A stretch of 64,000 bases of DNA from a virus. The position numbers and the translations under genes are program-made. The DNA is taken from the UHGV virus genome UHGV-1579991. One strand, given 5' to 3'. The notes below the pieces were generated by a model. The model did no database searches and had not been told where the DNA came from. It saw only the letters and a program-made list of their open reading frames with translations. Of this stretch, positions 16,905 through 62,085 are shown in pieces (the stretch's first letter is position 1; each line of letters starts with the position of its first letter).

Positions 16905-16950
16905 TATATGTAAAAATATTGTACAACAATACTGTCATTTTTGCACAGCA
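16905..16950 (-). promoter_or_regulatory. Promoter-like conserved motif containing TTGTACAA
   Basis: Minus-strand GTGCAAAAATGACAGTATTGTTGTACAATATTTTTAC about 35 nt upstream of clamp-loader ATG. Confidence 0.5.
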
Positions 16951-18126
16951 TGGCCGCAATCGTACACAGGCACATAACCAGCGTCAAGCATTTGTTGTTC
17001 ATCTACTTCTGCAGTATGCGCAGCATACAGTCGCTTCTTGTAATTCCACCAATGTTTTCTAATAGTCAATTTGTCATTGCATATGACAGGATTTTTTGAC
17101 AAGTCTGTGCTATCTACACGTTCATTGCATAAATGCTGTCGTATGATTTCTACAACGTCATCAGGGTTATCCCAATCCCATATTGTAATGCATATGTAGC
17201 CTGCTGTAAGTGCTGCTTGAGTTTTTCTAAAATGTCTATCATTAGGAATTGGCAAATTGCGTTTAGATTTGCCAATTGCATATGCAAAGCCAAATGCAGC
17301 ATTATGTGAAAACGATGGGTTGATTTCTATTAGTAGATGCTTATAATGCAAATCATAAGAAAATCTGCCAATATTGACATCATCAAATGTGCAATCAATG
17401 TTAAGTCGTTGCAGCAAAAAATCATGCCACCAACGATTAACCGTTGTAATGGTGCGCCCATTAGCATGCCGACAACGCTCAGTCATAACAAACCAAGGTA
17501 CACCATAGCGTTCAAGATTTGTTTGCATGCGTTTTGCAGTGCCACCATATTCATCACCGTATCGTAATCTGCGTGTATGAACTGCTTTTAATGGGTTGCC
17601 AGCAGAATTGCCATATCGTAGCATCTTTGTTTGCTGCGCTTTAGCAGTAATTACACCATGGTCAGGATAGTGTTCGCGTATTGTTTGCTGCACTTTAGTA
17701 GCATTCCATGTGCGATAGCCGTACTTGTGTAATTTTGTTTGCTGGGCTTTTTGCATGTTGTTATAATATGGGTCGCCATAGCGTTCTTCTTTAATTTTGC
17801 ACATTAACTGTTGGTCGCCAAATGCATTGCCATATTTTGCAAGTTTTGTTGCCTTAAATTTAGTCATGTCGCCAAGCCCATTGCCATATCTTTCTCGTTT
17901 TGTTGCGACACCTTTGTTTGTAAATTCTTTTTAATTGCGCAGTGTTTTCAACACCATATTTACGCAAATTGCTTATACGACTGTTATATGTACGTTTGCA
18001 AATTGTGTATTGTGAGTAGCGTTTATGCTGAGGTCGTTCTTTAGACGCAGTTTGCAATATCACATCTCTTTCCTCTTCAAGTTCTTTTATGCGAGCTTCA
18101 AGAGCTTCTCCAGTTAATGGTTCCAT
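16935..18126 (-). pseudogene. Homing-endonuclease-like gene (family A paralog) split by a frameshift
   Basis: N-terminal ORF 17860-18126 (LTGEALEARIKELEEERD...ISNLRKYGVEN) and C-terminal ORF 16935-17867 (YG repeats, LLIEINPSFSHN, GYICITIWDWD) lie in different frames overlapping by 8 nt; T-run near 17925-17945. Confidence 0.5.
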
Positions 18127-18362: not shown

Positions 18363-21300
18363 TCAAAAGCCTCGATTCATCAGTTCATCAGCAAGTCGTT
18401 CAAGTTCAGTAGCAGCTTTTTGTCGCTTGGCTTCTCTTTCTGCTTCAACATCTGCTTTGCTTACTGGCGATTCCAAGTCTTTTGCAGGTGCATCTTCAAT
18501 AACAGTCAAATTGTTGTCATCAAACTTGTTGTCAATGTCAACTCGTTTGAATGATATGATGCCTGATGACACCTGAGCTTCTACTTGTTGTTTGTCAAAT
18601 ACAAGACTACTAATCGTTGATTGCAGTTTTGTAGATGCCAGCAATCGTTCTGTGTTATCTGCAAAAATGTCATCAGTAAACAATACATGCAGCATTTGAG
18701 CAATCGAATCACGACTTCTGCTGTAGCCACTGTCAAATGCAGGCAACTGCTTAATTGCATAGATGTCGCCATCATGTACAGTAATTGCATTGAACATGCG
18801 TCTTGCAATTGATGCCACCGAATCAAGTACATCTGGTGATTGCGGCGTGTAGCCTCGTGAATCAAAGTATATGAGTGCAGAGTTCTTAACAATTTGATCG
18901 ACTACTTCTGATGCAATTGAGACTGCATCTTTGCTGTTATTGAAGACATCATTTAGCATATATGACACAATCTTGATGTTCGACTCATGCATTGTGCCAC
19001 TTGAGCCAGCATCAAATATTGACACTGCGTCTTTGATTGATTTGAGTCTTGCAAGTCGATACATGTCTTTGTTATCAATGACATACATATCGATAGTCTT
19101 CATAATTGTGTCGAACAAGTAATGATGCGATAGTGTTCGCAATGCATGTCGCCAATCATCAAATACTCGTCTGTCTTCTACAAGATATGCAAGCTTGCCA
19201 TTTTTCTTGACAAGTTCAAATCTGTCTGATTCTTGAATTTGCTCTGCCGGCAAATTCATGATGACTTCGAATGTAGCCTGATTGACAAATGATGCAAACA
19301 TTTTGCCAATCTTGCTGTTCTTTTCTTGACGGTACTCTGCTCGAGCTTCTTTTGCAGCATTGAGAACTTGAGCAATCATCATGTCATCTGCAACAACATC
19401 TTGCACGACTTTGCATTCATAGCCATACGATGACAATGTGTTCTGAATGATGACAAGCTGAGTAGCCCATTGTCGCCATTTCTGCTCAAACATATTGAGC
19501 TTATACGCAGTCAAGTGAATCTTGATTTCACCTGTGTACGGGTCACGATAAAAGTACGGTGCATTGAATGCCCATTCAAAGAAATCAAAGAGACTTCTTG
19601 AGTCATTGCGCTTTGTCTGCATTTGCAAAATGTCCCAGAATGTCAACTTTTCAACATTTGTTAATGTCAAGTCAAGCTCATCATATGCAGTGATGTTTCG
19701 TGGGTCACCATTCGCTTTTGTCATACTGAAATACACATATGACTGAATGGATATTTTGCGAAGTCGTGAGTTGAACTGCTCAATTTCTTGACCAGTGAAT
19801 GCCTCGTCATAAATGACATCGAATTCGTAGCTGTCATTGATATCAATGCCAACTGACAAGTAATTTGTGCAGAATAGCAGTTCAATATCACCGATTGTGC
19901 CAGATTCATTGATTGATTGAACAAAGTCATGCATTGCATTGTCACGCTTGTAGTACTTGACTTTTGGATTTCTGCCAAGCATCATTCGAACTGCACCAAC
20001 AATTGCATGAGTAAATGCATCGCCTTTGTTTGTTGGGAACAGAATTCGTTTGCCTGCTTTAATTGCTGTTGAGATATGTGATGCAAGTTTTGTAATCTTG
20101 TCGCCGTCATGTTTGCAGCAGACAAATCTGACACCTTTGTTGTAATTAAGTGGCTTATCGCAGAATACGACAGTATCAAAATGACAGAACATGTGTTCAG
20201 CTACAGGTGTGCCTGTCATCAAAATGACTTTTGTCTGTAACTTTGTTAAGTTGTCAATCACATTTGCAGGTACAACATCACGATATGCAGACATTGTCAA
20301 CAAGTGCGACTCGTCGACGACGACGTAGTCATATAAAATTGACACTTCCTCTGGGTCAGCTAATGTAAATTTATCGAATGTCAAAGCTACATTGACATGC
20401 TTAGACAATTCAAGACCACGCTGACCAAATGAGCAATACATGCCAAGGTCTGACATCTCAATCTTTGATTGCAAGATTGATGTGTATGGTTCAATCAGCA
20501 TGACTCGTTTTCCATCACGAGTAAGCTGTTTGATGAATTCTGTCTTGCCTGAACCTGGTCGTGCAATCAAATAGTTGATGCCAGTTACAAATGCTTCTTC
20601 AAGTTCATGCTTGTATGTCGACAAATACTCATTTTCTGCAAGTTTGAAGACATGCGTATGTCGAAGTTCAAAGTCTTTTTGCTGTGCAACTTTCGACATA
20701 ATGTATTGACTGATTGCGTCTTCTGTATTGTGTTCAGCAATCAGTTCATTGACAGTTACAGACGACTTGTTAGCAAACTTGAATTTGAAGCCATGTTTTT
20801 CACGAAGTTCTTTGACAGATGACCATACACATGGACAAGTGCCTGCTGCATTACGTTCAACTGCAGACCTGAATGAGTTTGCCCAGCTGTTATGCTCTGC
20901 ATTGAACTTTGGATTGCCCGAACACATTTGCAAGAACATTTGCAACACATGTTGATATTGTGCAGAAGTCGTTGATTGCAAATCATATAAAAATGCTAAA
21001 GTATATGCAAGTCTGTATCTACCAGTGTTATCGTAGTTTTGTGGAGTGATTGTGAGCATTGTGCCCTCTTCAATCATTGTGATGTCGTCACGTTGAGTAA
21101 AGACTTGCTCGCCGTCAGTCATTGCAGTCATATGAGACTTCGGTGCATAATCAAAACGACCACGAAGTCTATCAAACATTGTCTTCAGTTTGTCGATGCA
21201 GAATTTTGCATCAACTGAAGCATAAATGCTAACATCAAACTCTGGTTGCTCAATGAATTGCGCGTTTTGATTGATGATGACATCTTTATCTCGTGCAACA

Positions 21301-21962
21301 AATAGTGGCTGACTAATTTTGCAAACAGACGCATCAACTACTCGAGATTCAGACATTTGACCTGACTTTTCAAGTCGTCTTGACAATGTATTGTTGACAG
21401 GATGCACTTCTCGAGCCATGTCATGATTGCCCTCTGATTCAAGCTGGTCACTCAGCAACACAAGGCATTTCCAAATGACATACAGTTTTGCCTCATATGC
21501 ATCAAGATATACTTTCTTTGCTGCAGAAGCATTTTCAGATGACACAAATACAGCATCTTCAGTTTGAATTGACAGAGGCTTTGAGATTGTATAGACGTGC
21601 AAGCCTGAACCAGAAGTCGACTTAAGCACAGCAACACACCACGGATATTTGCAAAGCATTGCAGCCAAACGTGGTTTAATGACTTCTACAAGTTCTTTTG
21701 AGTGAAAGTCCAAATCGACTGGCTGTAAGCCTGACCAAGTCAAGTAGTCATGAACTTGTTGTTTTGGTCGAGCAAACATTGTCGATTGCGACACAAAGGG
21801 ACGATGCGCTTTATCTACTGTGTCAAGTGACTCATCATTTGCAACTTTCATGATGAGGTCATACAATGAAATTTGTTGCTTATTGACAGTGTCTTCTGTT
21901 TTACGAACACTGTCGCCCATCATGAACTTTATGCCACTGAGCAAATCTTTGACGTTTGACAT
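18363..21962 (-). CDS. PrimPol-like (archaeo-eukaryotic primase) domain fused to DExH P-loop helicase; putative replicative primase-helicase
   Basis: Start at MSNVKDLL (ATG 21962-21960); AEP-like motifs VDLDFH and SGSGLHVY; Walker A LIARPGSGKTEF; Walker B VVVDESHLL; about 1199 aa. Confidence 0.5.
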   Translation of the reverse strand: MSNVKDLLSGIKFMMGDSVRKTEDTVNKQQISLYDLIMKVANDESLDTVDKAHRPFVSQSTMFARPKQQVHDYLTWSGLQPVDLDFHSKELVEVIKPRLAAMLCKYPWCVAVLKSTSGSGLHVYTISKPLSIQTEDAVFVSSENASAAKKVYLDAYEAKLYVIWKCLVLLSDQLESEGNHDMAREVHPVNNTLSRRLEKSGQMSESRVVDASVCKISQPLFVARDKDVIINQNAQFIEQPEFDVSIYASVDAKFCIDKLKTMFDRLRGRFDYAPKSHMTAMTDGEQVFTQRDDITMIEEGTMLTITPQNYDNTGRYRLAYTLAFLYDLQSTTSAQYQHVLQMFLQMCSGNPKFNAEHNSWANSFRSAVERNAAGTCPCVWSSVKELREKHGFKFKFANKSSVTVNELIAEHNTEDAISQYIMSKVAQQKDFELRHTHVFKLAENEYLSTYKHELEEAFVTGINYLIARPGSGKTEFIKQLTRDGKRVMLIEPYTSILQSKIEMSDLGMYCSFGQRGLELSKHVNVALTFDKFTLADPEEVSILYDYVVVDESHLLTMSAYRDVVPANVIDNLTKLQTKVILMTGTPVAEHMFCHFDTVVFCDKPLNYNKGVRFVCCKHDGDKITKLASHISTAIKAGKRILFPTNKGDAFTHAIVGAVRMMLGRNPKVKYYKRDNAMHDFVQSINESGTIGDIELLFCTNYLSVGIDINDSYEFDVIYDEAFTGQEIEQFNSRLRKISIQSYVYFSMTKANGDPRNITAYDELDLTLTNVEKLTFWDILQMQTKRNDSRSLFDFFEWAFNAPYFYRDPYTGEIKIHLTAYKLNMFEQKWRQWATQLVIIQNTLSSYGYECKVVQDVVADDMMIAQVLNAAKEARAEYRQEKNSKIGKMFASFVNQATFEVIMNLPAEQIQESDRFELVKKNGKLAYLVEDRRVFDDWRHALRTLSHHYLFDTIMKTIDMYVIDNKDMYRLARLKSIKDAVSIFDAGSSGTMHESNIKIVSYMLNDVFNNSKDAVSIASEVVDQIVKNSALIYFDSRGYTPQSPDVLDSVASIARRMFNAITVHDGDIYAIKQLPAFDSGYSRSRDSIAQMLHVLFTDDIFADNTERLLASTKLQSTISSLVFDKQQVEAQVSSGIISFKRVDIDNKFDDNNLTVIEDAPAKDLESPVSKADVEAEREAKRQKAATELERLADELMNRGF

Positions 21963-21974
21963 ATTTTGTTGATG

Positions 21975-22030
21975 CTTTTGTTTGGTCAAAATTATATTGA
22001 ATATGATACAACACTTGTGACATTTTTGCT
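21975..22030 (-). promoter_or_regulatory. Promoter-like motif variant upstream of primase-helicase
   Basis: Minus-strand GCAAAAATGTCACAAGTGTTGTATCATATTCAATATAAT. Confidence 0.4.
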
Positions 22031-22671
22031 TAGAATGCGACACCGACATGTGCGCCAATCATAGCAGCTTTTGAGTCAACTTGCTTCATGCAGCCAGCAT
22101 CAATACCGACACGCCATTGTAAACTACCTTTGCCAAATTGACGAGTGTATGACAGCCAATACATGTCAATTGATTGCTTGTCAAATGTGCCAAATGCATA
22201 ATGAAAGTCTACATTATTTCGTGGCGCATCATGGTCAATGACTTTAATTGTCGTAGTTTGCACTTCACGAATGACTGTGTCTGCTTTGAACATCAAAACG
22301 TCCCAATCACGTTGCTTAATTGCGTTTTGTGTGACATAGTCTTTTATTGCTATTTGCAGTTTGTCTGACTTCAATGTGTCTGCGTACTCATATTGTGCAA
22401 AGTAGTCATTAACATAATGCATAAGCTTTGTTGTGTCAATGTCAACTACAAGAGTCGTGTCACAATACACTGGCACTGGTATTGTCTTGCCAGGTATATG
22501 AACTGTGTCGTGTTTAATGAATGTGTCAACTTTGACAATTGGCTCTGCATTTATAGCATCTTGATATGTTTGCCAGTCTTTTGGGCTGACAAAATGCCAA
22601 TCTTTGAAAATCATGACAGCAGTCAATACAATGACTGCTGTCATGACTATGATTTTGAGTGTCTTCAACAT
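22030..22671 (-). CDS. Signal-peptide protein with C-terminal aromatic beta-strand; possible outer-membrane beta-barrel (Lom/OmpX/Ail-like)
   Basis: N-term MLKTLKIIVMTAVIVLTAVMIF; C-term ...WRVGIDAG...AMIGAHVGVAF ending in Phe. Confidence 0.4.
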   Translation of the reverse strand: MLKTLKIIVMTAVIVLTAVMIFKDWHFVSPKDWQTYQDAINAEPIVKVDTFIKHDTVHIPGKTIPVPVYCDTTLVVDIDTTKLMHYVNDYFAQYEYADTLKSDKLQIAIKDYVTQNAIKQRDWDVLMFKADTVIREVQTTTIKVIDHDAPRNNVDFHYAFGTFDKQSIDMYWLSYTRQFGKGSLQWRVGIDAGCMKQVDSKAAMIGAHVGVAF

Positions 22672-24339: not shown

Positions 24340-24597
24340 TTAATTGTTGAGATACTGCTGAAGCTCGGCTTCTGTTGCAAGTCTACATTGCTTAATATTG
24401 AACACTGTCATAATATGACAACTCTTGCATTTATGCCAAATTTCAGCAACAGCAGTTTGTGTGTTCTTTGGCAATGAGTGTCTGTACTTGACAATGTCTG
24501 TAGTACCGCAGCATTTACATGTGCCAAGCACTACATACAATTTTGAGTTAGTCGCGCTCAATTGTGACATGTCTAACTTCTGCTTCTTCATAGCCAT
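24340..24597 (-). CDS. Hypothetical small zinc-ribbon-like protein
   Basis: CKCCG ... CKSCH. Confidence 0.35.
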   Translation of the reverse strand: MAMKKQKLDMSQLSATNSKLYVVLGTCKCCGTTDIVKYRHSLPKNTQTAVAEIWHKCKSCHIMTVFNIKQCRLATEAELQQYLNN

Positions 24598-25969
24598 GCT
24601 CTCTTAGCTTTTCAATGAGCGCTTCAACATCTGCTCGATAAGTATCGCGATTGTCGGAACGTTCAACTATTTTGTACTCTTTCTTAAGTTCTACAATCTT
24701 TGCTTTAAGCTTTTTCTGTTCATCTTGAGTCAATCTGCTGACTGCAATTTCAAGAACTTTGTGATTGATTGAATGCTCATCAAGAATAGACTTGACTTGC
24801 TTAGTCGTCATTTTGTGCAGCACAATGACTTCGTCAAGCACAAGTTGAATGAACTTCATGATGTCTTCATACCACTGAATTGTAGTACGAATGTCTTCAA
24901 GTCGTTTTTGCTTGCGAATTTCATAGAATTGCAAACGCCACTCGACAAATCGCATAATGAGTGAACCGACTGTTTTGTATCGACGAATCTTGTCATCGAA
25001 GTCAATGACAGTCAAGTTGTCACGTTCAATTCTGCAGAACATTGCAAGAGTCCAGTATAATGAATCTTTTGCAAGCAACTCAGCAAGTTTTGCTTTCGTA
25101 AACTTTATCTCATACAGAATCTTGTCTTTGTGAGAGTAATTTGTCCATGCTTCAATAATGTCACGGTCAAGCAGCATATTGAGATGGTTTTCATAGCCAT
25201 CGAATGTGTTGTTGTATGGGATTGCAGTTACATTGACTGTAGTGTCATCAACAACTTCCATTCGACCATGATGCTCATATACACCATTGACAAGTCGCCA
25301 TTCTCCTTGCAAGCCTTTGACATATGGCGTAATTTTACGTTCAGAAATATCTTCGCCATCAAGAGCATCAATAACAGCATTGCAAACTTCAATTGGATTA
25401 CGATTGATAATTGTGCTTGAGTAGCCAACCGCAATGCCCATAATTGAATTTAGCAAAATTGTGGGCACAATTGGCAGATAAAATTGCGGCTCAACTTCAA
25501 TGCCCTCTTGCCAACGATTTGTAAGCAACTCATTGTCTTTCATAAGCAACTCAAATGCATCTGACAATCGAACAAAGATGTATCGAGGCGCACCTGCATA
25601 TGGGCTATAGAACGTACCAAACTGGCCTTCACCAATAAAATATGGAATGTTCTGCTTAAAGTCCTGAGACATGATTGTGATATTGCCCTCAAGACTTGTC
25701 TGGCCGTGTTCGTAACCACCCTCTGCTTTTACATAGCCTGCAAATGCACCTACAGTTTGCTTAACGCCACCTTTAAGACGCTTGAGTGCAACATACATGA
25801 TTTTTCGTGCAGTAGGCTTAAAGCCATCACGAACATCAGGTATCGCACGTTCAAATGCTGTGTGTAATGCGTACTCTTTATATCGAGTATTCAAAAATTC
25901 CGCAATGGAAATTTGAATATCTTGTTCTGTCAATGGTTCTGTGTAAACTTCTTGTTTTCGTCGTGCCAT
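24548..25969 (-). CDS. DNA topoisomerase II subunit (GyrA-like, T4 gp52-like)
   Basis: Start at MARRKQEV (ATG 25969-25967); AIPDVRDGFKPTARKIMYVAL resembles GyrA N-terminal box. Confidence 0.75.
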   Translation of the reverse strand: MARRKQEVYTEPLTEQDIQISIAEFLNTRYKEYALHTAFERAIPDVRDGFKPTARKIMYVALKRLKGGVKQTVGAFAGYVKAEGGYEHGQTSLEGNITIMSQDFKQNIPYFIGEGQFGTFYSPYAGAPRYIFVRLSDAFELLMKDNELLTNRWQEGIEVEPQFYLPIVPTILLNSIMGIAVGYSSTIINRNPIEVCNAVIDALDGEDISERKITPYVKGLQGEWRLVNGVYEHHGRMEVVDDTTVNVTAIPYNNTFDGYENHLNMLLDRDIIEAWTNYSHKDKILYEIKFTKAKLAELLAKDSLYWTLAMFCRIERDNLTVIDFDDKIRRYKTVGSLIMRFVEWRLQFYEIRKQKRLEDIRTTIQWYEDIMKFIQLVLDEVIVLHKMTTKQVKSILDEHSINHKVLEIAVSRLTQDEQKKLKAKIVELKKEYKIVERSDNRDTYRADVEALIEKLREHGYEEAEVRHVTIERD

Positions 25970-25989
25970 TGTAGCTAATTTGATTTTAT

Positions 25990-26035
25990 TTCCTATATTA
26001 TTGTACAACGATGTTGTTAGATTTGCATCATTTGA
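25990..26035 (-). promoter_or_regulatory. Promoter-like conserved motif containing TTGTACAA
   Basis: Minus-strand GATGCAAATCTAACAACATCGTTGTACAATAATATAGG, 30 nt before topoisomerase ATG. Confidence 0.5.
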
Positions 26036-27174: not shown

Positions 27175-27418
27175 TTTGTGTATGTTCTTGATTTGCTTGT
27201 TCTGCTAAGTTGTTTATGAATGCTTTGAGCAATTCAATGATTGTTGTTAGTAACTGAATTTGAAACAATACAATGCTAAACATGACAATTGCTACAATGC
27301 AAATTGAAATGAAGAGCATATTGATGTCAAATTTGTTTGCTATCAATGTTTGCAGCCAAGTTATGACTGCAAACATTGAAATCAGTATGAATACTTTGTG
27401 CTGTGATAACGATTTCAT
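27152..27418 (-). CDS. Small membrane protein (two predicted TM helices)
   Basis: FILISMFAVITWL and ISICIVAIVMFSIVLF. Confidence 0.4.
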   Translation of the reverse strand: MKSLSQHKVFILISMFAVITWLQTLIANKFDINMLFISICIVAIVMFSIVLFQIQLLTTIIELLKAFINNLAEQANQEHTQNDSDTAN

Positions 27419-28134
27419 TTGAAATGTGCGGATGTCGGATTAGTGTCGGTCATTCTAATGTGCCAGTCATAAATGAACCATCTTGCGAGGTCATCATTTT
27501 TGATGTTATGAGTTTTGACATACTGTTCAGGGCCTAATGCCTCGCCGGTTTCAGGATTGACTGCGAAGTGGGATTCATCTACATTAGTAGACTTGTTTTT
27601 GATGTTTGAGATTCGGAGCTTTGTATGCAGTTCAGTGCCATCAGATTGCAGTGTTTTGACATAGAATGCAGTTTTTGTCGTTGCTTCATTGTCAAGCCAT
27701 ACACCGAACTTAACTCCGTGCGATTTCCAGTATGCATTGTCAGCATCCCTGATTGCTTTGAAGTTCGGGTCATCAAGCCAAGGCTTGAAGACATATACAG
27801 CATGTTGTTCCTTTCGAGTGATTTCGCCTTTGCCTTCACAAACTGTATGATACAGCCGCATTGCAGTTTCTTCATCGAAATAATAAGTCAGATTGCCTGG
27901 CTTATCGAATGTGCCAAACTGCTGACCATCGATTACGAGAATGAATGTGTAACGTGAATCCTTGAAGAACTCTACTCGTACAGGCTGTTTGTGCTGTCTG
28001 CTGTTAAGCAGTCTGTCAATTGTAATGACTGCCCAGTTGGTGCCTGTCTTTGTTTTGTTGCCGTGAAACAGTTCAGGATATGAAACTGTGTAAGGCAATG
28101 CTTTGTACTTCCAATGTTCATTAAAACTTTTCAT
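27415..28134 (-). CDS. Hypothetical protein, 239 aa
   Basis: ORF preceded by promoter motif. Confidence 0.5.
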   Translation of the reverse strand: MKSFNEHWKYKALPYTVSYPELFHGNKTKTGTNWAVITIDRLLNSRQHKQPVRVEFFKDSRYTFILVIDGQQFGTFDKPGNLTYYFDEETAMRLYHTVCEGKGEITRKEQHAVYVFKPWLDDPNFKAIRDADNAYWKSHGVKFGVWLDNEATTKTAFYVKTLQSDGTELHTKLRISNIKNKSTNVDESHFAVNPETGEALGPEQYVKTHNIKNDDLARWFIYDWHIRMTDTNPTSAHFK

Positions 28135-28202
28135 ATGTAGAGATTTTTGTAGTTTGTATCAATTGCATTCTATATCAATTGCATCTTGTATCAAATACAT
28201 TA

Positions 28203-28250
28203 TATTGATATATGATAATTGTACTACAAAAATCCCAAATTTGCACACTT
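28203..28250 (-). promoter_or_regulatory. Promoter-like conserved motif
   Basis: Minus-strand GTGTGCAAATTTGGGATTTTTGTAGTACAATTATCATATATC. Confidence 0.55.
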
Positions 28251-28291
28251 TGATAATCAAAAGTGCAAACAAAATTCAAAGTTATATTGTA

Positions 28292-28323
28292 CATCATAAA
28301 GTGCAAATTTGCACTTTATGATG
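28292..28323. promoter_or_regulatory. Perfect 32-bp palindrome (putative operator)
   Basis: CATCATAAAGTGCAAATTTGCACTTTATGATG, no spacer, centred on the GTGCAAA/TTTGCAC box. Confidence 0.5.
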
Positions 28324-28349
28324 CTGCAAAATGTTTGCATAAAAAAATA

Positions 28350-28373
28350 AGCAGCTTAGATTGCTAAGCTGCT
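28350..28373 (-). terminator. Rho-independent terminator
   Basis: Stem agcagcttag/ctaagctgct, loop attg, followed on minus strand by T-run. Confidence 0.6.
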
Positions 28374-28397: not shown

Positions 28398-28883
28398 TCA
28401 TTTGTAGTGTTCAGTTATGTATGCAGAGCATAGCAAAACAACTGATACACAAATGACAATGTATGTTGGCGTAATCAGTGTCACATTGAATAACAATGCA
28501 GTCAATGCGCATACTGTTACTGATATGAGTGTTGAAATGAATGCAGCATATGCACTAAACTTGCTTTTTAACAAACGTTCGATGATATATGTTGTCGCAA
28601 CAGACAGTAAGACTACACATGCAAATAACAACAGCCAAGTTGAGTTTGACGTTGTCGGCTCTTCAATAAACTGCAATGTTGCTGATGGCACTTCAATATT
28701 GTTTGATGCTTGTAATGTGCCACTTGCAGCATCTGCGTACATCACAGTTAAGTAGTGTCGTTGAATTTCTGCTGCGTCTACTTTATAGATTCTATGCCAT
28801 GCAACATCTGATATGATGTATGTTGCAGCCATAAATGCAGCAATGCATAGCATATAAGAGCCAAACTTTGCAATCGGTTTCAT
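28398..28883 (-). CDS. Integral membrane protein (about 4 TM helices)
   Basis: Start at MKPIAKF (ATG 28883-28881); hydrophobic stretches throughout. Confidence 0.45.
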   Translation of the reverse strand: MKPIAKFGSYMLCIAAFMAATYIISDVAWHRIYKVDAAEIQRHYLTVMYADAASGTLQASNNIEVPSATLQFIEEPTTSNSTWLLLFACVVLLSVATTYIIERLLKSKFSAYAAFISTLISVTVCALTALLFNVTLITPTYIVICVSVVLLCSAYITEHYK

Positions 28884-29260
28884 GCAAATATATTTTTGTT
28901 TGTATATGTACATAAAAGAGCAAGTTCTCCACATTGAGAACTTGCTCAGCTGACCTGTTACCAGGTGAAAGCGTGGTGCAGCACCTTGTGCTGCAATGGC
29001 TATGCTGCCATCGCCATAACGGGCTGAGCATTGCCCAGCATCATTACACGACCAGCTGCATTAAGCGTACGCTTTGCTTTGTTGAAAAATTTGCCAGTTA
29101 TCTGGTATCTGCACATCTATTCAAGCGACCTACTATGCAATCAAATGCCTGTCGAGCCCAATGTTTGAGCAGTTGTTTGTCAGATGCTCAGCTGACTGCA
29201 GTCTTTCTGAGTGTATCAAGTTCAGCGATTCTGCATCTTTGCTAAATGGCAATGGTTCAG

Positions 29261-29341
29261 GTGGACTCGCCGAGAATCGAACTCGGGTCTTACATAGCGC
29301 ATCCTTGACTTGGTCCTGTAAACAGGGTTGTCAACATGCAT
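29261..29341 (-). other. tRNA-like element: clean T-arm and 3' acceptor strand, no matching 5' acceptor strand found
   Basis: Minus-strand ccgag-TTCGATT-ctcgg then cgagtcc-a; upstream sequence does not supply GGACTCG-type partner. Confidence 0.25.
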
Positions 29342-29412
29342 TGCAATACGACAGGACTCGAACCTGCGACCTCGGATTGGACGTCCGCGCTCTTACCGCT
29401 GAGCTACGTATT
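29342..29412 (-). tRNA. tRNA, isotype ambiguous (anticodon region reads CGTCCAAT: UCC/Gly with G33, or CCA/Trp with poor stem)
   Basis: Acceptor GAATACG/CGTATTG (1:72 mismatch), D-arm GCTC-AGCGGTAA-GAGC, T-arm GCAGG-TTCGAGT-CCTGT. Confidence 0.55.
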
Positions 29413-38629: not shown

Positions 38630-41600
38630 TTAGAACAGAGCAATGATGTTGTCGACAAACATAAAGCATGCATGCAGCAATTCAGCTGTCGGCGTCATCT
38701 CATATGCTTTGCCATCATACATGAATCGCACAGTGACAATTGGTGATACTTCGTCTTTGAATGCAAGCACTGGAATGTCTACGCCTGCAGTCAATTGCAC
38801 TTCAACGTCCTTGTCAGCTGCTGCATCTTTAGCAATCACTGCGATATCTCGACAACGACCAGCAGCTACTGCATACCGAACATTTGTCAATGCTGCAGAC
38901 ATATCAACAAGAGCTTGCATAATTTGCTGTTGAGTAAATTGCTCGACTGACTTCTTTGCAGCCTTGACTGCTTCGATATCTTGCGTATTTGCAAGAATCA
39001 ATGCTACCACTGCAGGGTCAGAAGTAGTCCACCAACGGCCATCAATTGCAAGCCACAGTCGATTGCCATTGACGTCAATTGCATATGCATATTGAGTGTT
39101 TGGTGCCAATGTGACTTTTCGAGTGTTCTTTAAGAACTCTGCTGCATCAGGAGCTGCAACAATGTTCTTGACAAATGACGGCAGCATTTCAGCTTCAAAT
39201 GTTTGTGTAGCTTCAAAGACACCGCCACGTGCATCGTCATCAATTCTGCCTGCAAAGCGTTTGCAGATTTGAATGATTGTAGCCATGCCTACTGTTGGAA
39301 CGACTTGACGTTTCATTGCAGGCATTTGCAGAGGCATTGTATCTTGTGCAATGTACAATGATGCAACATCAACTGTGTCAAGTACTCGTACAATGTCAGC
39401 AGCGTCAACAATTACAAACCAGTCACCATCATGACAAACAATCAGTTGCTTGCTATCATTTGCGAATGTTAACAGCACTGCAACGTCATTTTTGATTGAT
39501 ATTGCAGGAATCCATGCTTGTTGCAGAGGTAAGTCAAGATTTGGTGTGCCGCATGGATAAAGCGCAGATGGCTGCATAATTGAGCGGCAATCAAAACCTA
39601 TTGAACTTACAAGCTGCAGAACTTCGCCACGAATGCAAGCATTACTTTGATTCTGTGTCATATCATATGCAAGCCAACTGCAAATTGCTTTGATTGATGA
39701 CACTGGAAATGCTATGCCAATTGTGCTGTATGCAATCTTGCCGTCTGCTGACAATGACTCATCAACTGCAATGCCAGCATCATTGAACAATGACATATCA
39801 ATTGAACAATGGAATTCGCCACCAGGCATTGGACCTGCAGCAATACCATAGCCAGGACCAAGTGACAGCCATTCTTTCATTGCATCTGAATTGTATGACG
39901 AGAACTTGTACAACACATATGACTTATGCGGGTCACTAACTGACTTGCGAATCTCCATCTTGGCGCCTGCTTTCTTTGCAATTGCTTTGATGTTGTCAGC
40001 ATGCTTCTTTGCCTCAGACTTGTCAAATTTGCCTTCATCAAGTTGAGCAATCTTGCCAAGCGCATAAGCAGTCCATGCAATTGACAATTGATTCAGTGCA
40101 CCAACTTCTGACCACGACTTTTCTGCAAACCATGAGCCAAGACCAGATTTGTCAAGAGTTGCTTTGCGTTCAGCTTTTGTTGCAGCATCCCACCACTTGC
40201 CTGTTGCAGGCAACACAATGTCTTTGATTTGCTCCTTGCGAAGCTCATTGACGCCAATTTTGCCCTCATGAATATGCGCATTTGCATGATATGCTCTAAG
40301 AGCAGCCAATGCAGCATCATATGAGTCATAGTCTTGCGGCCAGAATTCCCCATTCTTGCCAATGATGCCCCATACGCCCTTTGACTTTTCTTGGATGACA
40401 GAGTCTTTGTCACCAGCAGCTTCATTGACAAATGCAGTGTTAAGATATGCAATGACATGCTGAAGCTCTTTGTCGTCTGCAGACTCATTGACGTTCTTAG
40501 CGTAATCACCAAGAATTGATTCAACTTTGCCACGTAAATTGCTTGGCATATCATCAAGGTCAAGATTGCCATACTTCGTGACTTCTGGTTGAGACAATCC
40601 AAGCAATTTCAACACCTTATCACGGTACTTGTTTGCGAGCTTCTTCCAAATCCAGCGGAATGTTACAGCGCCAATCAAGAATTTGATGAGGCCCTCATCA
40701 AGTACATGTTGTTCACGCAAATATGCTGTAATGCATGAACGTTGACCATCAGTTAAGTCAACCCACATTTTATCAAGCAGTATTGAATCTGGGTTGCTTG
40801 CAATGCCAGCGCCACTGCGGTTGTACACATTCATTCTGTCAATTGCTGGTGTTGCGTCATTGTCCCACCAAGCTTGCGCATATGAACATCCAGCAGGATT
40901 TGAGATTGCCTCATCAATGTACATGACATTGAAAATTTCGCAAAGACGCTTGCGACATTCAGGTGACATAACTTGCCATTGTGTTGCAATTTTGTCTTCT
41001 GACCACTGCAACAGCATGTCTGCAAATTCTTTACCTGCACATTGCTCAACTGCGCCATGTTTCGAACGCCAATAATTGTCAGGCTCAATCTGCGCAATTG
41101 CATGAACAAATGAAGTCAGATTGTATGACGCAGATTCGCAAATGCAATGCTGTTCAATGTAGCTACGAACAGCAAGTGCAGTGTCTTCCGGCAAGTTGCT
41201 ATATGGTGACTCATAGATGTTTGCTTGCTGATTGAGCATATGTGGAGCGACTTCTGCAATGATTTGTTTGCGAACATTCAATGGCCATGCATTCCACGAA
41301 GATTCCACAGATTCATCAAGATGCATACCAATTGCATCCATAACTGCATCAGCATCTTTGCCCGACAGTTCGTCAAACAATTTGTCTACTACTGCAGCGT
41401 CATATCGCAAATTTGGCTGAGCTTTTGCAAGAGCATCCATCATTGCTTTGCGTTCTTGTTTTGACGCATTGTTCCATGTGCCAGCATACAATTCTGCTGT
41501 CGCGCTTTCACAAACAATATCTGCAGTAGCATATGCTTGCTTCATAATGTCCATGAAGATTGACTTCATTTTTGGATGCATCACATGATACTTTTCATTG

Positions 41601-41836
41601 TAAATGTCAAGTGTGCCATAGACATCTTTCAATGGTCTAATGCTTTCTGATGAGCCGAATGATGGCTTCAAAATTGAATTGCATACACGTTCAACGGTGC
41701 CACGCATAAACTTGACATCACTTCGCTTGTCACTGATAGACATAAATGCATCAATGACAGACTTGATGGTGTCATCTGCGGCTTCATTAACAAAGCCTAC
41801 TGGTCGACCGCCAAACTTGTTTGTTTGTGTTGTCAT
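38630..41836 (-). CDS. Large hypothetical protein, 1068 aa
   Basis: Uninterrupted ORF; no polymerase, helicase or nuclease motif recognised. Confidence 0.55.
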   Translation of the reverse strand: MTTQTNKFGGRPVGFVNEAADDTIKSVIDAFMSISDKRSDVKFMRGTVERVCNSILKPSFGSSESIRPLKDVYGTLDIYNEKYHVMHPKMKSIFMDIMKQAYATADIVCESATAELYAGTWNNASKQERKAMMDALAKAQPNLRYDAAVVDKLFDELSGKDADAVMDAIGMHLDESVESSWNAWPLNVRKQIIAEVAPHMLNQQANIYESPYSNLPEDTALAVRSYIEQHCICESASYNLTSFVHAIAQIEPDNYWRSKHGAVEQCAGKEFADMLLQWSEDKIATQWQVMSPECRKRLCEIFNVMYIDEAISNPAGCSYAQAWWDNDATPAIDRMNVYNRSGAGIASNPDSILLDKMWVDLTDGQRSCITAYLREQHVLDEGLIKFLIGAVTFRWIWKKLANKYRDKVLKLLGLSQPEVTKYGNLDLDDMPSNLRGKVESILGDYAKNVNESADDKELQHVIAYLNTAFVNEAAGDKDSVIQEKSKGVWGIIGKNGEFWPQDYDSYDAALAALRAYHANAHIHEGKIGVNELRKEQIKDIVLPATGKWWDAATKAERKATLDKSGLGSWFAEKSWSEVGALNQLSIAWTAYALGKIAQLDEGKFDKSEAKKHADNIKAIAKKAGAKMEIRKSVSDPHKSYVLYKFSSYNSDAMKEWLSLGPGYGIAAGPMPGGEFHCSIDMSLFNDAGIAVDESLSADGKIAYSTIGIAFPVSSIKAICSWLAYDMTQNQSNACIRGEVLQLVSSIGFDCRSIMQPSALYPCGTPNLDLPLQQAWIPAISIKNDVAVLLTFANDSKQLIVCHDGDWFVIVDAADIVRVLDTVDVASLYIAQDTMPLQMPAMKRQVVPTVGMATIIQICKRFAGRIDDDARGGVFEATQTFEAEMLPSFVKNIVAAPDAAEFLKNTRKVTLAPNTQYAYAIDVNGNRLWLAIDGRWWTTSDPAVVALILANTQDIEAVKAAKKSVEQFTQQQIMQALVDMSAALTNVRYAVAAGRCRDIAVIAKDAAADKDVEVQLTAGVDIPVLAFKDEVSPIVTVRFMYDGKAYEMTPTAELLHACFMFVDNIIALF

Positions 41837-45936: not shown

Positions 45937-45973
45937 TGTAACAGTGCATTTAAGTGTTTTAACAGTTTTATGT

Positions 45974-46007
45974 ATAAATTGTACAACAATGGGCAAAATT
46001 TTGCATC
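45974..46007 (-). promoter_or_regulatory. Promoter-like conserved motif containing TTGTACAA upstream of RNR
   Basis: Minus-strand GATGCAAAATTTTGCCCATTGTTGTACAATTTATAC. Confidence 0.5.
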
Positions 46008-52693: not shown

Positions 52694-52719
52694 AGGAAGA
52701 GCTCAATTGAGCTCTTCCT
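52694..52719 (-). terminator. Perfect hairpin downstream of 52750-53622
   Basis: aggaagagctc-AATT-gagctcttcct; core AGCTCAATTGAGCT shared with hairpin at 57019-57046. Confidence 0.45.
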
Positions 52720-53643: not shown

Positions 53644-53691
53644 TATTATTTATAGATATATAATACTACGACAATGCAAATTTTGCACTGT
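53644..53691 (-). promoter_or_regulatory. Promoter-like conserved motif
   Basis: Minus-strand CAGTGCAAAATTTGCATTGTCGTAGTATTATATATCTATAAATAAT. Confidence 0.55.
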
Positions 53692-53717
53692 CGTAGCATA
53701 AAAGTTTACACATTTTT

Positions 53718-57018: not shown

Positions 57019-57046
57019 CAAGACCAGCTCAATTGAGCTGGTCTTG
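57019..57046 (-). terminator. Rho-independent terminator
   Basis: caagaccagctc-AATT-gagctggtcttg followed on minus strand by TTTTGTGTG. Confidence 0.6.
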
Positions 57047-60874: not shown

Positions 60875-60890
60875 GCGTATAATTTTGTGT

Positions 60891-60935
60891 ATATAATTAT
60901 TGTACAACATGCAAATGCACATTGCATTTGATACA
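60891..60935 (-). promoter_or_regulatory. Promoter/operator element shared by homing-endonuclease genes
   Basis: Minus-strand GCAATGTGCATTTGCATGTTGTACAATAATTATATAC; near-identical element at 62041-62085. Confidence 0.5.
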
Positions 60936-62040: not shown

Positions 62041-62085
62041 GATAATTGTACAACATGCAAATGGCGTTTGCATTTGATGCAACAA
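62041..62085 (-). promoter_or_regulatory. Promoter/operator element shared by homing-endonuclease genes
   Basis: Minus-strand GCAAACGCCATTTGCATGTTGTACAATTATCAATATG. Confidence 0.5.

What the first reader, a model, noticed from the sequence alone, without database searches (positions are those of the whole stretch)
28292..28323. Perfect 32-bp palindrome centred on the GTGCAAA box, between a terminator and a promoter
CATCATAAAGTGCAAATTTGCACTTTATGATG is a spacerless perfect palindrome, so more likely a dimeric protein-binding site than an RNA hairpin. Its half-site GTGCAAA is the same box found upstream of the conserved promoters, and related inverted repeats (CAAATGCA-cat-TGCATTTG at about 60915-60933; ATGCAAA-tggcg-TTTGCAT at about 62065-62083) sit in the homing-endonuclease promoters.
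Basis: seen in the sequence. Interest (0 to 1): 0.5.

Follow-up and report, generated by a model that had tools for sequence, protein, structure and literature searches.

The report
Hairpin-forming palindrome inside a phage promoter
The perfect 32-bp palindrome is real, but it overlaps the -35 box and spacer of one of about 19 copies of this T4-like phage's standard promoter, so it is best read as a promoter-plus-stem-loop cassette of a kind already described in T4-type phages, not as a new regulator-binding site.

Summary
CATCATAAAGTGCAAATTTGCACTTTATGATG at 28292-28323 is a perfect palindrome and the longest in the window; 100 shuffles reached at most 26 bp.

- **Context.** Genes here run on the minus strand. 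"GTGCAAA" is the -35-like box of a promoter class, TGCAAA-N16-TAyAAT: 13 copies on the minus strand, 0 on the plus strand, 0.22 expected, with strict spacing.
- **Position.** The palindrome covers the -35 box and the whole spacer of promoter P1. It lies 26 nt after an intrinsic terminator and 68 bp before a second promoter copy, P2.
- **Pairing, not half-sites.** A second promoter (53666-53696) has a 31-bp palindrome in the same position with different outer arms. Relatives show a mirrored T-A to C-G change and sense-strand G·U wobbles. TGCAAA/TTTGCA spacing varies (0, 1, 5).
- **Spacerless does not mean protein.** The other two long spacerless palindromes sit at gene ends like terminator hairpins; the scan flags one.
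- **No regulator found.** No DNA-binding domain turned up in 58 ORFs of the window.
- **Conservation.** A relative whose downstream protein is 65% identical keeps the terminator, P1 and P2 but has no palindrome.
- **Closest known.** The phage is T4-like. The element matches the promoter-early stem-loop (PeSL) cassettes of T4-type phages, including indels at promoter copies between close relatives.

It is a new member of a known kind. A dimeric-regulator operator or a cruciform switch is not excluded.

The parts
28340..28373 (-). Intrinsic terminator after the 178-aa membrane ORF. The stem-loop AGCAGCTTAG-CAAT-CTAAGCTGCT runs 28373..28350 and is followed by TATTTTTTTA.
   Evidence: Terminator scan and DNA fold at -10 kcal/mol. 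In relative L002 the loop CAAT is inverted to ATTG.
28325..28339 (-). Small dyad TGCAAA-CAT-TTTGCA next to the terminator's T-run. It may be the remnant of a -35 box plus its inverted copy.
   Evidence: Relatives L001 and L002 have TGCAGA, which gives a G·U pair on the sense strand only.
28292..28323 (.). The perfect 32-bp palindrome. It is 34 bp in relative L002.
   Evidence: It folds as a 14-bp stem with a 4-nt loop: DNA -13.2 kcal/mol, z = -7.3. It also forms in the RNA fold of the whole intergenic region.
28308..28314 (-). GTGCAAA, the -35-like element of promoter P1. It forms the inner part of the palindrome's upstream arm.
   Evidence: It is 16 nt from the -10, as in all 13 strict matches to the promoter class.
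28286..28291 (-). The -10 hexamer TACAAT of promoter P1. It directly abuts the palindrome.
   Evidence: The conserved G at +18 and G at +21 of the class are present as GATG.
28240..28269 (-). Imperfect inverted repeat TTTGCACTTTTGAT-T-ATCAAAGTGTGCAAA. Its downstream arm contains the -35 box of P2.
   Evidence: (I13). The P2 region is a 71% direct repeat of the P1 region at 68-bp spacing (D2).
28218..28246 (-). Promoter P2: GTGCAAA (28246..28240), a 16-nt spacer, then TACAAT (28223..28218).
   Evidence: It is 100% conserved in L001, L002 and L012. P2 is also present in the 65%-identity relative L007.
28154..28194 (-). A 16-nt tandem repeat between P2 and the start codon, with variable copy number.
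   Evidence: TRF finds 2.6 copies in the window and 5.6 copies in L001. The repeat is replaced by other sequence in L009 and L011 and is absent in L007.
27415..28134 (-). The 239-aa ORF of unknown function, the first gene downstream of P1 and P2. It is followed by ORFs of 88, 322 and 57 aa and then the topoisomerase II subunit gene at 24548-26008.
   Evidence: It has no Pfam, PHROG or PDB match. The AlphaFold model was unusable, with pLDDT 41.8.
53666..53696 (-). A second palindromic promoter, CTACGACAGTGCAAA-A-TTTGCATTGTCGTAG. It has the same position relative to the -35 and -10 (TATTAT 53665..53660) but different outer arms.
   Evidence: 17-pair RNA stem, z = -8.6. The only non-Watson-Crick pair is a G·U on the sense strand, and it is G-C in relative L016.

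Best explanation
The palindrome is the stem-loop part of a composite promoter/stem-loop cassette of the PeSL (promoter-early stem-loop) type, in a distant T4-like phage.

**Shown.**
- The phage drives its replication and nucleotide-metabolism genes from a repeated sigma70-like promoter, (G/T)TGCAA(A)-N16/17-TAyAAT, preceded by a conserved GTnG.
- Promoter P1 in the 28.3-kb intergenic region is one copy of it.
- In P1, the sequence upstream of and including the -35 box is the exact reverse complement of the spacer. The region from about -45 to -13 can therefore fold on one strand into a 14-bp hairpin with a 4-nt loop.

**Inferred.**
- The symmetry acts, or at least is kept, through nucleic-acid pairing rather than through recognition by a symmetric protein.
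- As RNA, the hairpin would sit in transcripts that read through the upstream terminator. In relative L002 it would also sit in transcripts started at an extra promoter, P0, just upstream. There it would attenuate or insulate upstream transcription or stabilise an RNA end, and P1 and P2 would then restart transcription of the operon from the 239-aa ORF to topoisomerase II.
- As single-stranded DNA, it forms during replication. This would explain the templated, mirror-image mutations and the clustering of indels at these cassettes.
For: **The phage is T4-like.** It has a Gp23 capsid protein (PF07068), a T4-type large terminase (PF03237), a gp44-type clamp loader and split topoisomerase II.

**The promoter class is real.**
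- TGCAAA-N16-TA[CT][AT]AT occurs 13 times on the minus strand and 0 times on the plus strand, against 0.22 expected. There are no matches at spacings 14, 15 or 17.
- Anchoring on the -10 alone recovers a TGCAA-type box (TGCAAA, TGCAAT or TGCAAG) at the -35 position in 13 of 16 hits.

**The palindrome is the -35 box plus spacer of P1**.

**Other promoters carry stem-loops in the same way.**
- A second promoter has the same architecture with different arm sequences.
- Others have shorter stems between the -35 and -10, or terminator hairpins that abut the -35.

**Changes in relatives are compatible with pairing.**
- L002 has a mirrored T-A to C-G change. Overall divergence over 13 kb is about 4.7%.
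- Two further stem changes are a G·U to G-C change and an A-U to G·U change, in both cases with the wobble on the sense strand only.

**The largest indels between close relatives sit at promoter cassettes.**
- A 75-bp insert carrying an extra promoter lies exactly at the palindrome's upstream edge.
- A 33-bp promoter duplication lies at window 26010.
- The 16-nt tandem repeat next to P2 has expanded.

**Published description of PeSLs.**
- They occur in T4-type phages, and the stem-loop can lie between the -35 and -10 or overlap the -35. One such stem-loop terminated transcription in a reporter assay (PMC2839356).
- The nt-1/KVP40 promoter consensus TTGYVH-N17-TAWWAT accommodates TTGCAA (PMC4122927).
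Against: - **Poor terminator.** The hairpin has an A/U-rich stem and no U-tract after it, and the terminator scan does not flag it. A good terminator already stands 26 nt upstream, so an attenuator role here is not obviously needed.
- **Not conserved.** The palindrome is absent from the only more distant relative found, L007, whose downstream 239-aa protein is 65% identical. That relative keeps the terminator, P1 and P2. Whatever the palindrome does is therefore dispensable or lineage-specific.
- **Mutation alone could explain the mirrored change.** A single template-switch event would produce it without any selection. The terminator loop inversion CAAT/ATTG shows that such events happen in this lineage.
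- **Thin sampling.** The palindrome region was seen in six sequences: the window, L001, L002, L012 and the partial L009 and L011. Only L002 carries a variant.
- **Different hosts and features.** PeSLs were described in phages of Gram-negative enterics and vibrios. This phage's host is unknown and its genes lack Shine-Dalgarno sequences.
Confidence: 0.5

Rival explanations
1. It is an operator for a dimeric DNA-binding regulator. A phage or host dimer would bind the GTGCAAA|TTTGCAC core on duplex DNA. Centred at about -28.5 and covering the -35 box and spacer, it would repress P1, and perhaps the other dyad-bearing promoters, as a timed shut-off.
For: - The site is perfectly symmetric and overlaps the -35 box and spacer, the classical repressor position.
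- TGCAAA..TTTGCA dyads are enriched in the head-to-head orientation only.
- TTTGCA occurs in the spacer of 6 of 19 promoters.
- The region carries four copies of the roughly 15-nt ATCAnAAAGTGCAAA element in inverted pairs.
Against: - The half-site spacing varies among promoters: 0, 1 and 5 nt, with a 3-nt gap in the related dyad at 60912-60930.
- The outer 8-9 bp of each arm differ between the two long palindromes yet stay complementary.
- A perfect 32 bp is far longer than a typical operator.
- The palindrome is absent in the 65%-identity relative, which keeps the promoters.
- No HTH or other DNA-binding domain was found among 58 ORFs of the window.
- The TGCAAA half is already accounted for as the -35 element.
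Confidence: 0.17
2. It is a by-product with no function of its own. The short palindrome CAAATTTG, which is part of several copies of this promoter, seeded intrastrand hairpins during replication. Template switching (quasipalindrome correction) then copied the constrained spacer onto the unconstrained upstream region, which extended and homogenised the arms. The promoter still works, and the symmetry is neutral.
For: - TGCAAATTTG, which contains CAAATTTG, is shared by three promoters: 28313, 28245 and 12606.
- The right arm carries the conserved promoter positions (G at +18, G at +21), and the left arm lies in the otherwise unconserved region from -36 to -45.
- A terminator loop inversion, CAAT to ATTG, between close relatives is a recognised signature of template switching (PMC8604942 abstract).
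- Template switching is reported to homogenise and expand the arms of inverted repeats at promoters (PMC13100816).
- The palindrome is not conserved in L007.
Against: - All three longest palindromes in the window lie at transcription signals, not at random positions.
- Two promoters independently carry full-length palindromes that end exactly at the -10.
- The palindrome survives intact next to a 75-bp indel junction in three different upstream contexts.
- The intergenic region around it is more conserved than the 13-kb average: 3 substitutions in about 190 nt against 4.7%.
Confidence: 0.2
3. It is a supercoiling-sensitive cruciform switch. On negatively supercoiled phage DNA the A+T-rich perfect palindrome would extrude as a cruciform and remove the -35 box and spacer from duplex form, so that P1 output would fall with supercoiling. 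This would couple expression of the downstream topoisomerase II operon to DNA topology.
For: - A perfect 32-bp A+T-rich palindrome with no spacer is the geometry most prone to extrusion.
- It overlaps essential promoter elements.
- P1 and P2 head the operon that ends in a topoisomerase II subunit gene.
- The promoter of the other topoisomerase II subunit gene (35256) also carries a TGCAAG-T-TTTGCA dyad.
- A laboratory precedent, cited from my own knowledge and not checked here: Horwitz and Loeb 1988, Science 241:703, described an E. coli promoter repressed by superhelix-induced cruciform extrusion.
Against: - There is no direct evidence.
- The promoter directly upstream of the topoisomerase gene (26027) has no dyad.
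- The tandem promoter P2 would bypass any such control.
- The palindrome is missing in L007.
- The sense-strand G·U wobbles favour RNA or single-strand pairing over a symmetric cruciform.
Confidence: 0.07
4. It is part of a replication origin resembling T4 oriE, which combines an early promoter with iterons. The palindrome would serve as an unwinding or loading element.
For: - Two tandem early-type promoters, an A+T-rich leader and an array of 16-nt direct repeats lie together.
- T4 oriE depends on an early promoter and contains evenly spaced 12-nt iterons (PMC3016281).
Against: - There is no GC-skew shift or change of transcription direction here.
- The repeat array varies from 2.6 to 5.6 copies, is replaced by other sequence in L009 and L011, and is absent in L007.
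- The palindrome is absent in L007.
- Even in T4 the role of the iterons is unproven.
Confidence: 0.05

Closest known systems
PeSLs (promoter-early stem-loops) of T4-type phages. Arbiol et al. 2010, PMC2839356; Comeau et al. 2014, PMC4122927.
   Same: - Both are repeated intergenic cassettes in a T4-like genome that combine a sigma70-like early promoter with a stem-loop.
- Published subclasses include stem-loops between the -35 and -10 and stem-loops overlapping the -35.
- The cassettes coincide with indels and cassette exchange between close relatives.
- The nt-1/KVP40 -35 consensus TTGYVH fits TTGCAA.
   Different: - This stem is much longer (14-16 bp), perfectly symmetric, A/T-rich and without a U-tract. 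RB49/phi1 stem-loops are typically G-run/C-run stems.
- A separate canonical terminator is also present.
- The phage is only distantly T4-like, its host is unknown, and its genes lack the Shine-Dalgarno element that forms part of the published PeSL layout.
Rho-independent (intrinsic) terminators
   Same: It is a hairpin-forming perfect palindrome in an intergenic region. The terminator hairpin at 57019-57046 in this window is also a spacerless palindrome.
   Different: It has no T/U-run after the stem and only 3 G-C pairs per arm. The terminator scan does not flag it.
Dyad-symmetric repressor operators overlapping the -35 or spacer, such as those of lambdoid CI/Cro or LacI/PurR-type regulators
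   Same: It has dyad symmetry and lies over the -35 box and spacer. The core TGCAAA..TTTGCA superficially resembles LacI/PurR-type half-sites (this resemblance is from memory and was not tested).
   Different: At 32 bp of perfect symmetry it is far longer than such operators. The spacing of the halves varies among sites, the outer arms covary rather than being conserved, and no cognate regulator was found.
Hairpin promoters of the phage N4 virion RNA polymerase (from my own knowledge)
   Same: In both cases a promoter's function would involve a DNA hairpin extruded from an inverted repeat.
   Different: N4 promoters have a 5-7-bp stem, a 3-nt loop and specific conserved bases, and they need a virion RNA polymerase. 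Here the element has a sigma70-like -35/-10 architecture with a 14-16-bp stem, and no such polymerase was detected in the window.
Quasipalindrome template-switch products (PMC7202029, PMC8604942, PMC13100816)
   Same: Arm homogenisation, a mirrored double substitution and a loop (spacer) inversion are all seen between close relatives.
   Different: This is a mutational mechanism, not a functional class. It explains how the palindrome could arise and stay perfect, not whether it is used.

Membership tests
PeSL (promoter-early stem-loop cassette of T4-type phages) | It resides in a T4-type phage genome. | tested here: met
   Gp23 major capsid protein PF07068, T4-type terminase PF03237, gp44 clamp-loader lid, and split topoisomerase II. 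The relationship is distant: the best topoisomerase II hit is 37% identical, to Chryseobacterium phage MA9V-1.
PeSL (promoter-early stem-loop cassette of T4-type phages) | A repeated sigma70-like promoter (-35, spacer of about 17 nt, -10) in intergenic regions. | tested here: met
   TGCAAA-N16-TA[CT][AT]AT occurs 13 times on the minus strand and 0 times on the plus strand, against 0.22 expected, with strict spacing. Consensus table; search anchored on the -10.
PeSL (promoter-early stem-loop cassette of T4-type phages) | A stable stem-loop adjacent to or overlapping the promoter. Published subclasses include stem-loops between the -35 and -10 and stem-loops overlapping the -35. | tested here: met
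   The palindrome spans the -35 box and spacer. The published subclasses are quoted.
PeSL (promoter-early stem-loop cassette of T4-type phages) | The stem-loop terminates or attenuates upstream transcription. | not testable with these tools
   In silico it lacks a U-tract and is not flagged as a terminator. A reporter assay or Term-seq is needed.
PeSL (promoter-early stem-loop cassette of T4-type phages) | Association with insertions, deletions or replacements between closely related phages. | tested here: met
   Of the four largest indels in a 13-kb comparison with two relatives, three lie at or beside promoter cassettes: 28324, 28185 and 26010.
PeSL (promoter-early stem-loop cassette of T4-type phages) | A Shine-Dalgarno sequence and start codon at the 3' end of the cassette. 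| tested here: not met
   Only 1 of 55 genes in the window has an SD-like motif. This reflects the translation signals of the unknown host rather than the cassette logic.
Operator of a dimeric transcription regulator | The same half-site at a fixed spacing in several regulated promoters. | tested here: not met
   The TGCAAA/TTTGCA spacing is 0, 1 or 5 nt, with a 3-nt gap in the related dyad at 60912-60930. The outer arms differ between the two long palindromes.
Operator of a dimeric transcription regulator | A cognate DNA-binding protein encoded by the phage. | tested here: inconclusive
   No HTH or other DNA-binding Pfam domain was found in 58 ORFs of the window. The window is only about 36% of a genome of about 175 kb, and many ORFs have no match at all.
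Intrinsic terminator | A G+C-rich stem followed by a U-tract. | tested here: not met
   flags only the hairpin at 28373..28350. The palindrome is followed by TACAATATAAC.
N4-type hairpin promoter | A 5-7-bp stem with a 3-nt loop, recognised by a virion RNA polymerase. | tested here: not met
   The stem is 14-16 bp with a 4-nt loop and sits within a -35/-10 architecture. No RNA polymerase domain was detected in the window.
T4 oriE-like replication origin | An early promoter plus a conserved iteron array at a site of replication initiation. | tested here: inconclusive
   Promoters and 16-nt repeats are present. However, the repeats vary in number or are absent in relatives, and there is no skew shift. 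Initiation itself cannot be tested here.

The most novel reading that the evidence does not exclude
The promoters that carry a TGCAAA|TTTGCA dyad over the -35 box and spacer would form a separately controlled subset of this phage's early promoters. These are 28313, 53687, 35256 and the extra promoter P0 in relative L002. They would be switched either by supercoiling-driven cruciform extrusion or by an unidentified symmetric binder. Two of them head the operons for the two topoisomerase II subunits, so the palindrome would be a topology sensor that feeds back on the phage's own topoisomerase.
Probability: 0.1. Interest if true: 0.55.

Novelty: new member of a known kind. Interest (0 to 1): 0.25.

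Why it matters
- **Annotation value.** The work defines the main early-type promoter, (G/T)TGCAAA-N16-TAyAAT with an upstream GTnG, of an uncharacterised, distant T4-like phage lineage. The same element can now be used to map transcription units in that lineage.
- **Reach of a known mechanism.** Promoter/stem-loop cassettes, and the genome plasticity linked to them, appear to extend well beyond the T-even, pseudo-T-even and schizo-T-even phages in which they were described.
- **A natural test case.** The mirrored substitution and the loop inversion between genomes that are 95% identical give a clean example of hairpin-templated mutation acting on regulatory DNA.
- **What it does not show.** It does not reveal a new regulatory system.

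Tried and rejected
1. **Bacteroidetes-type promoter.** P1 contains a perfect TTTG-N19-TAACTTTG, but the motif is not enriched in the window (4 found, 2.5 expected). I treat it as chance.
2. **T4 MotA-box middle promoter.** The box here lies 22 nt from the start of the -10, at the canonical -35 position. My recollection is that the T4 MotA box lies about 19 nt away. No MotA or AsiA domain was seen, so I did not adopt this reading.
3. **The downstream 239-aa ORF as an autoregulator.** It has no Pfam, PHROG or PDB match. Only two homologue clusters exist, and the AlphaFold model had pLDDT 41.8. No fold search was run.
4. **Known RNA family.** Only sub-threshold chance hits to hairpin families were found. 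Across the window, Rfam finds only tRNAs.
5. **Looking for more distant relatives to test covariation.**
   - IMG/VR holds only two genomes, each about 95% identical.
   - The metagenome scan added one near-identical contig and two chance hits.
   - One relative whose downstream protein is 65% identical was found, and it lacks the palindrome.
6. **Scanning bacterial genomes for the 18-bp core, to find a host or a host regulon.** There were 34 scattered hits in unrelated phyla. Many lie inside longer palindromes or are flanked by A- and T-runs. Five belong to one repeat in enterohepatic Helicobacter. No usable signal emerged.
7. **The 20-bp core in IMG/VR.** Two unrelated phages carry it, one in a terminator-like context. 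I treat both as chance.
8. **An invalid fold.** My first DNA fold of the second palindrome used truncated coordinates (53658-53690) and is not valid. The correct element is 53666-53696, folded.
Full report
**1. The observation**

Window 28292-28323 is CATCATAAAGTGCAAATTTGCACTTTATGATG, and it is identical to its reverse complement. It is the longest perfect spacerless palindrome in the 64-kb window. The next two are 28 bp (57019-57046) and 26 bp (52694-52719). In 100 dinucleotide-preserving shuffles the longest palindrome was 14-26 bp. The feature is therefore real and not a chance event.

**2. Context**

Almost all genes in the window are on the minus strand. The 263-bp intergenic region reads as follows on that strand:
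- the stop codon of a 178-aa membrane ORF (28934..28398);
- an intrinsic terminator, with its stem at 28373..28350 followed by TATTTTTTTA;
- a small dyad, TGCAAACATTTTGCA;
- the 32-bp palindrome;
- TACAAT immediately after it;
- 68 bp further on, a second block, GTGCAAA-N16-TACAAT;
- a 16-nt tandem repeat;
- the ATG of a 239-aa ORF (28134..27415).

Behind that ORF come ORFs of 88, 322 and 57 aa and a topoisomerase II subunit gene.

The phage is a distant T4-like virus. It has a Gp23-type capsid protein, a T4-type large terminase, a gp44-type clamp loader, split topoisomerase II, DHFR, an NAD-dependent ligase, a ribonucleotide reductase carrying an intein, and seven tRNAs. Its nearest catalogued relatives are jumbo Chryseobacterium phages at 37% identity in topoisomerase II. 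Two IMG/VR contigs of about 175 kb are about 95% identical to the window.

**3. What the "GTGCAAA box" is**

Listing every TGCAAA on the minus strand exposed a repeated architecture. TGCAAA-N16-TA[CT][AT]AT occurs 13 times on the minus strand and never on the plus strand, against 0.22 expected on both strands together. There is no match at spacings of 14, 15 or 17 nt.

A position table shows the consensus g-TGCAAA-(t)(t)T(g)...G-T-n-G-TAyAAT. When the search is anchored only on GTnGTAyAAT, a TGCAA-type box (TGCAAA, TGCAAT or TGCAAG) turns up at the -35 position in 13 of 16 minus-strand hits.

Read as nTGCAA-N17-TAyAAT, this is a sigma70-like promoter with a variant -35 box. These promoters precede the tRNA array, both topoisomerase II genes, the clamp loader, the ribonucleotide reductase and the homing-endonuclease genes. 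All of these are early- or middle-type functions.

The palindrome is the -35 box (28314..28308) plus the complete 16-nt spacer of one copy, P1, whose -10 is at 28291..28286. The next copy, P2, is a 71%-identical direct repeat 68 bp downstream (family D2).

**4. Pairing or protein?**

Several observations point to intrastrand pairing rather than a symmetric protein site.

- **Other spacerless palindromes are hairpins at gene ends.** The other two long spacerless palindromes sit just after stop codons. The scan flags the 28-bp one as an intrinsic terminator. The 26-bp one folds stably but has only a weak T-run. Being spacerless therefore does not argue for protein binding in this genome.
- **A second promoter has the same layout with different arms.** At 53666-53696 the sequence is CTACGACAGTGCAAA-A-TTTGCATTGTCGTAG, followed directly by the -10 TATTAT. 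It occupies the same position relative to the -35 and -10, and shares only the core with P1. Its outer arms are different but still complementary. In RNA it folds as a 17-pair stem, z = -8.6.
- **The right arm is promoter-constrained and the left arm mirrors it.** In both palindromes the right arm carries the conserved promoter positions (G at +18, G at +21). The left arm, in the otherwise unconserved region from -36 to -45, mirrors it.
- **The half-spacing varies.** The two halves are 0, 1 or 5 nt apart among promoters. The related dyad at 60912-60930 has a 3-nt gap.
- **Changes in relatives keep pairing.**
  - Relative L002 has CATCAC...GTGATG, a mirrored T-A to C-G change. Only three substitutions occur in about 190 nt of the surrounding intergenic sequence, against 4.7% divergence over 13 kb.
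  - The single non-Watson-Crick pair in the 53.7-kb stem is a G·U on the sense strand, and it is G-C in L016.
  - The small dyad next to the terminator changes from A-U to G·U, again with the wobble on the sense strand only.
- **No candidate binder.** No HTH or other DNA-binding domain was found in 58 ORFs of the window. This is weak evidence, because the window covers about a third of the genome and many ORFs match nothing.

- There are 10 TGCAAA-N0-8-TTTGCA dyads, against about 1.4 expected from shuffles or about 2.7 from hexamer frequencies. The reverse orientation is not enriched.
- TTTGCA lies in the spacer of 6 of 19 promoters, P about 1e-6. Some of these are paralogous copies in the homing-endonuclease region.

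Stem-loops that pair the -35 box with part of the spacer explain this enrichment just as well as a binding site does.

**5. Comparison with what is known**

Arbiol et al. (2010) and Comeau et al. (2014) described PeSLs (promoter-early stem-loops) in T4-type phages.
- They are repeated cassettes that combine a strong sigma70-like early promoter with a stem-loop.
- The stem-loops are proposed, and in one case shown, to terminate or attenuate upstream transcription.
- The cassettes act as recombination points that create indels between close relatives.
- The nt-1/KVP40 promoter consensus TTGYVH-N17-TAWWAT accommodates TTGCAA.

The window shows the same picture. Terminator hairpins abut the -35 box at 62.1, 59.7, 57.0 and 47.0 kb. 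Shorter stems lie between the -35 and -10 elsewhere.

Of the four largest indels in a 13-kb comparison with the two relatives, three sit at or next to promoter cassettes:
- a 75-bp insert carrying an extra promoter, P0, with its own GTGC-N6-GCAC dyad, exactly at the palindrome's upstream edge;
- a 33-bp promoter duplication at window 26010;
- an expansion of the 16-nt repeat beside P2.

I therefore file the palindrome as a PeSL-type element of the "stem-loop over the -35 and spacer" kind. Its unusual features are its length, its perfect symmetry and its A/T richness.

**6. Caveats and rivals**

- **Weak terminator case.** The hairpin has no U-tract and is not flagged as a terminator. A good terminator stands 26 nt upstream. 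The attenuator role is therefore inferred, not shown.
- **Not conserved.** The only more distant relative found, L007, has a 65%-identical downstream protein. It keeps the terminator, P1 and P2 but has neither the palindrome nor the 16-nt repeats. The symmetry is therefore lineage-specific and dispensable.
- **Template switching could account for the symmetry.**
  - The terminator loop is inverted (CAAT to ATTG) between the window and L002. Loop inversion is a recognised signature of template switching at inverted repeats (PMC8604942 abstract).
  - The same mechanism could create and homogenise the palindrome and produce the mirrored substitution in one step, without selection (PMC13100816).

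I rate the explanations as follows:
- PeSL-type nucleic-acid element: 0.5
- neutral by-product of template switching: 0.2
- operator for a dimeric regulator: 0.17
- supercoil-driven cruciform switch: 0.07
- oriE-like origin element: 0.05

The origin idea is weakened by the absence of a skew shift and by the variable or absent repeats.

**7. Verdict**

The link to the promoter box is right, but it needs re-reading: the box is the -35 element. The protein-site inference is not supported, although it is not excluded.

The element is a new member of a known kind, the PeSL-type promoter/stem-loop cassette, in an uncharacterised distant T4-like phage. Interest is low to moderate at 0.25. The most novel reading still open is a topology-sensing palindromic promoter subset that controls the phage's topoisomerase II operons. 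I give that reading about 0.1.

Noticed in passing
window 28154-28194 (minus strand), between P2 and the ATG at 28134: A 16-nt tandem repeat (unit about ATGCAATTGATATAGA) has 2.6 copies in the window and 5.6 perfect copies in relative L001. It is replaced by unrelated sequence in L009 and L011 and is absent in the 65%-identity relative L007. This is a hypervariable array in a 5' leader of unknown role; an iteron-like function is one possibility.
   Followed up: partly
window 28360-28363 (loop of the terminator at 28373..28350): The terminator loop CAAT is exactly inverted to ATTG in relative L002 while the stem is unchanged. L012 has CACT at this position. This looks like a spacer inversion of the kind produced by template switching at inverted repeats.
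   Followed up: partly
whole window: 22 nt upstream of 55 start codons: Only 1 of 55 genes has a Shine-Dalgarno-like motif. The leaders are A/C-rich, for example CAAACTACAAAAATCTCTACAT-ATG. This suggests a host that does not use SD-led initiation, such as Bacteroidota. However, the Bacteroidetes -33/-7 promoter motif is not enriched, and the phage promoters look sigma70-like. The host remains unknown.
   Followed up: partly
L002/L017, insertion at window coordinate 28324; L018, insertion at window coordinate 26010: Relatives carry extra promoter copies. One is a 75-bp insert with P0 (TTTGTGCAAAATAGCACAAAATATTG-TACAAT, with its own GTGC-N6-GCAC dyad) directly upstream of the palindrome; L001 has a partly deleted version of it. 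The other is a 33-bp tandem promoter duplication in front of the topoisomerase II gene.
   Followed up: yes
window 53655-53647 and 37692-37684 (minus strand): CTATAAATA, which matches the T4 late-promoter core TATAAATA, lies a few nucleotides downstream of the -10 of two early-type promoters (2 found, 0.4 expected). These may be stacked early and late promoters.
   Followed up: no
window 18363-22058 and 38630-41836 (minus strand): Two very large ORFs (1231 and 1068 aa) inside the replication and nucleotide-metabolism region have no Pfam, PHROG or PDB sequence match at all.
   Followed up: partly
window 41950-45996 (minus strand): The ribonucleotide reductase large-subunit gene is interrupted by an intein carrying an HNH endonuclease (Intein_splicing plus HNH_3).
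   Followed up: no
window 3445-4719, 16935-17867, 59852-60922 and 60966-62027 (minus strand): There are several free-standing homing-endonuclease-like paralogues. Three match DUF7487: at or near the Pfam cut-off for 3445-4719 and 60966-62027, and only weakly (19.1 bits against a cut-off of 27) for 16935-17867. Two match phrog_3339. Those at 60-62 kb each sit behind their own copy of the TTTGCATGTTG-TACAAT promoter subtype.
   Followed up: partly
window 28909-29351 (minus strand): ARAGORN calls a permuted tmRNA here, overlapping the 178-aa ORF and adjoining tRNA-Gly. Rfam at gathering threshold finds only the seven tRNAs, so this is probably a false positive.
   Followed up: partly
L009 and L011 (Logan contigs), first bases: Two independent assemblies begin 2 nt inside the palindrome (TCATAAAGTGCAAATTTGCAC...). 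A 32-bp perfect palindrome probably folds a k=31 de Bruijn graph back on itself, so short-read assemblies of this lineage probably tend to break at this locus.
   Followed up: no
L019-L052 (bacterial genome hits to AAGTGCAAATTTGCACTT): The 18-bp core occurs in 34 places across unrelated phyla. It is often embedded in longer palindromes, for example CGTCCATCAAAGTGCAAATTTGCACTTTGATGGACG in a Chloroflexota MAG, or flanked by A- and T-runs. Five copies form a repeat family in Helicobacter magdeburgensis and H. labetoulli.
   Followed up: partly
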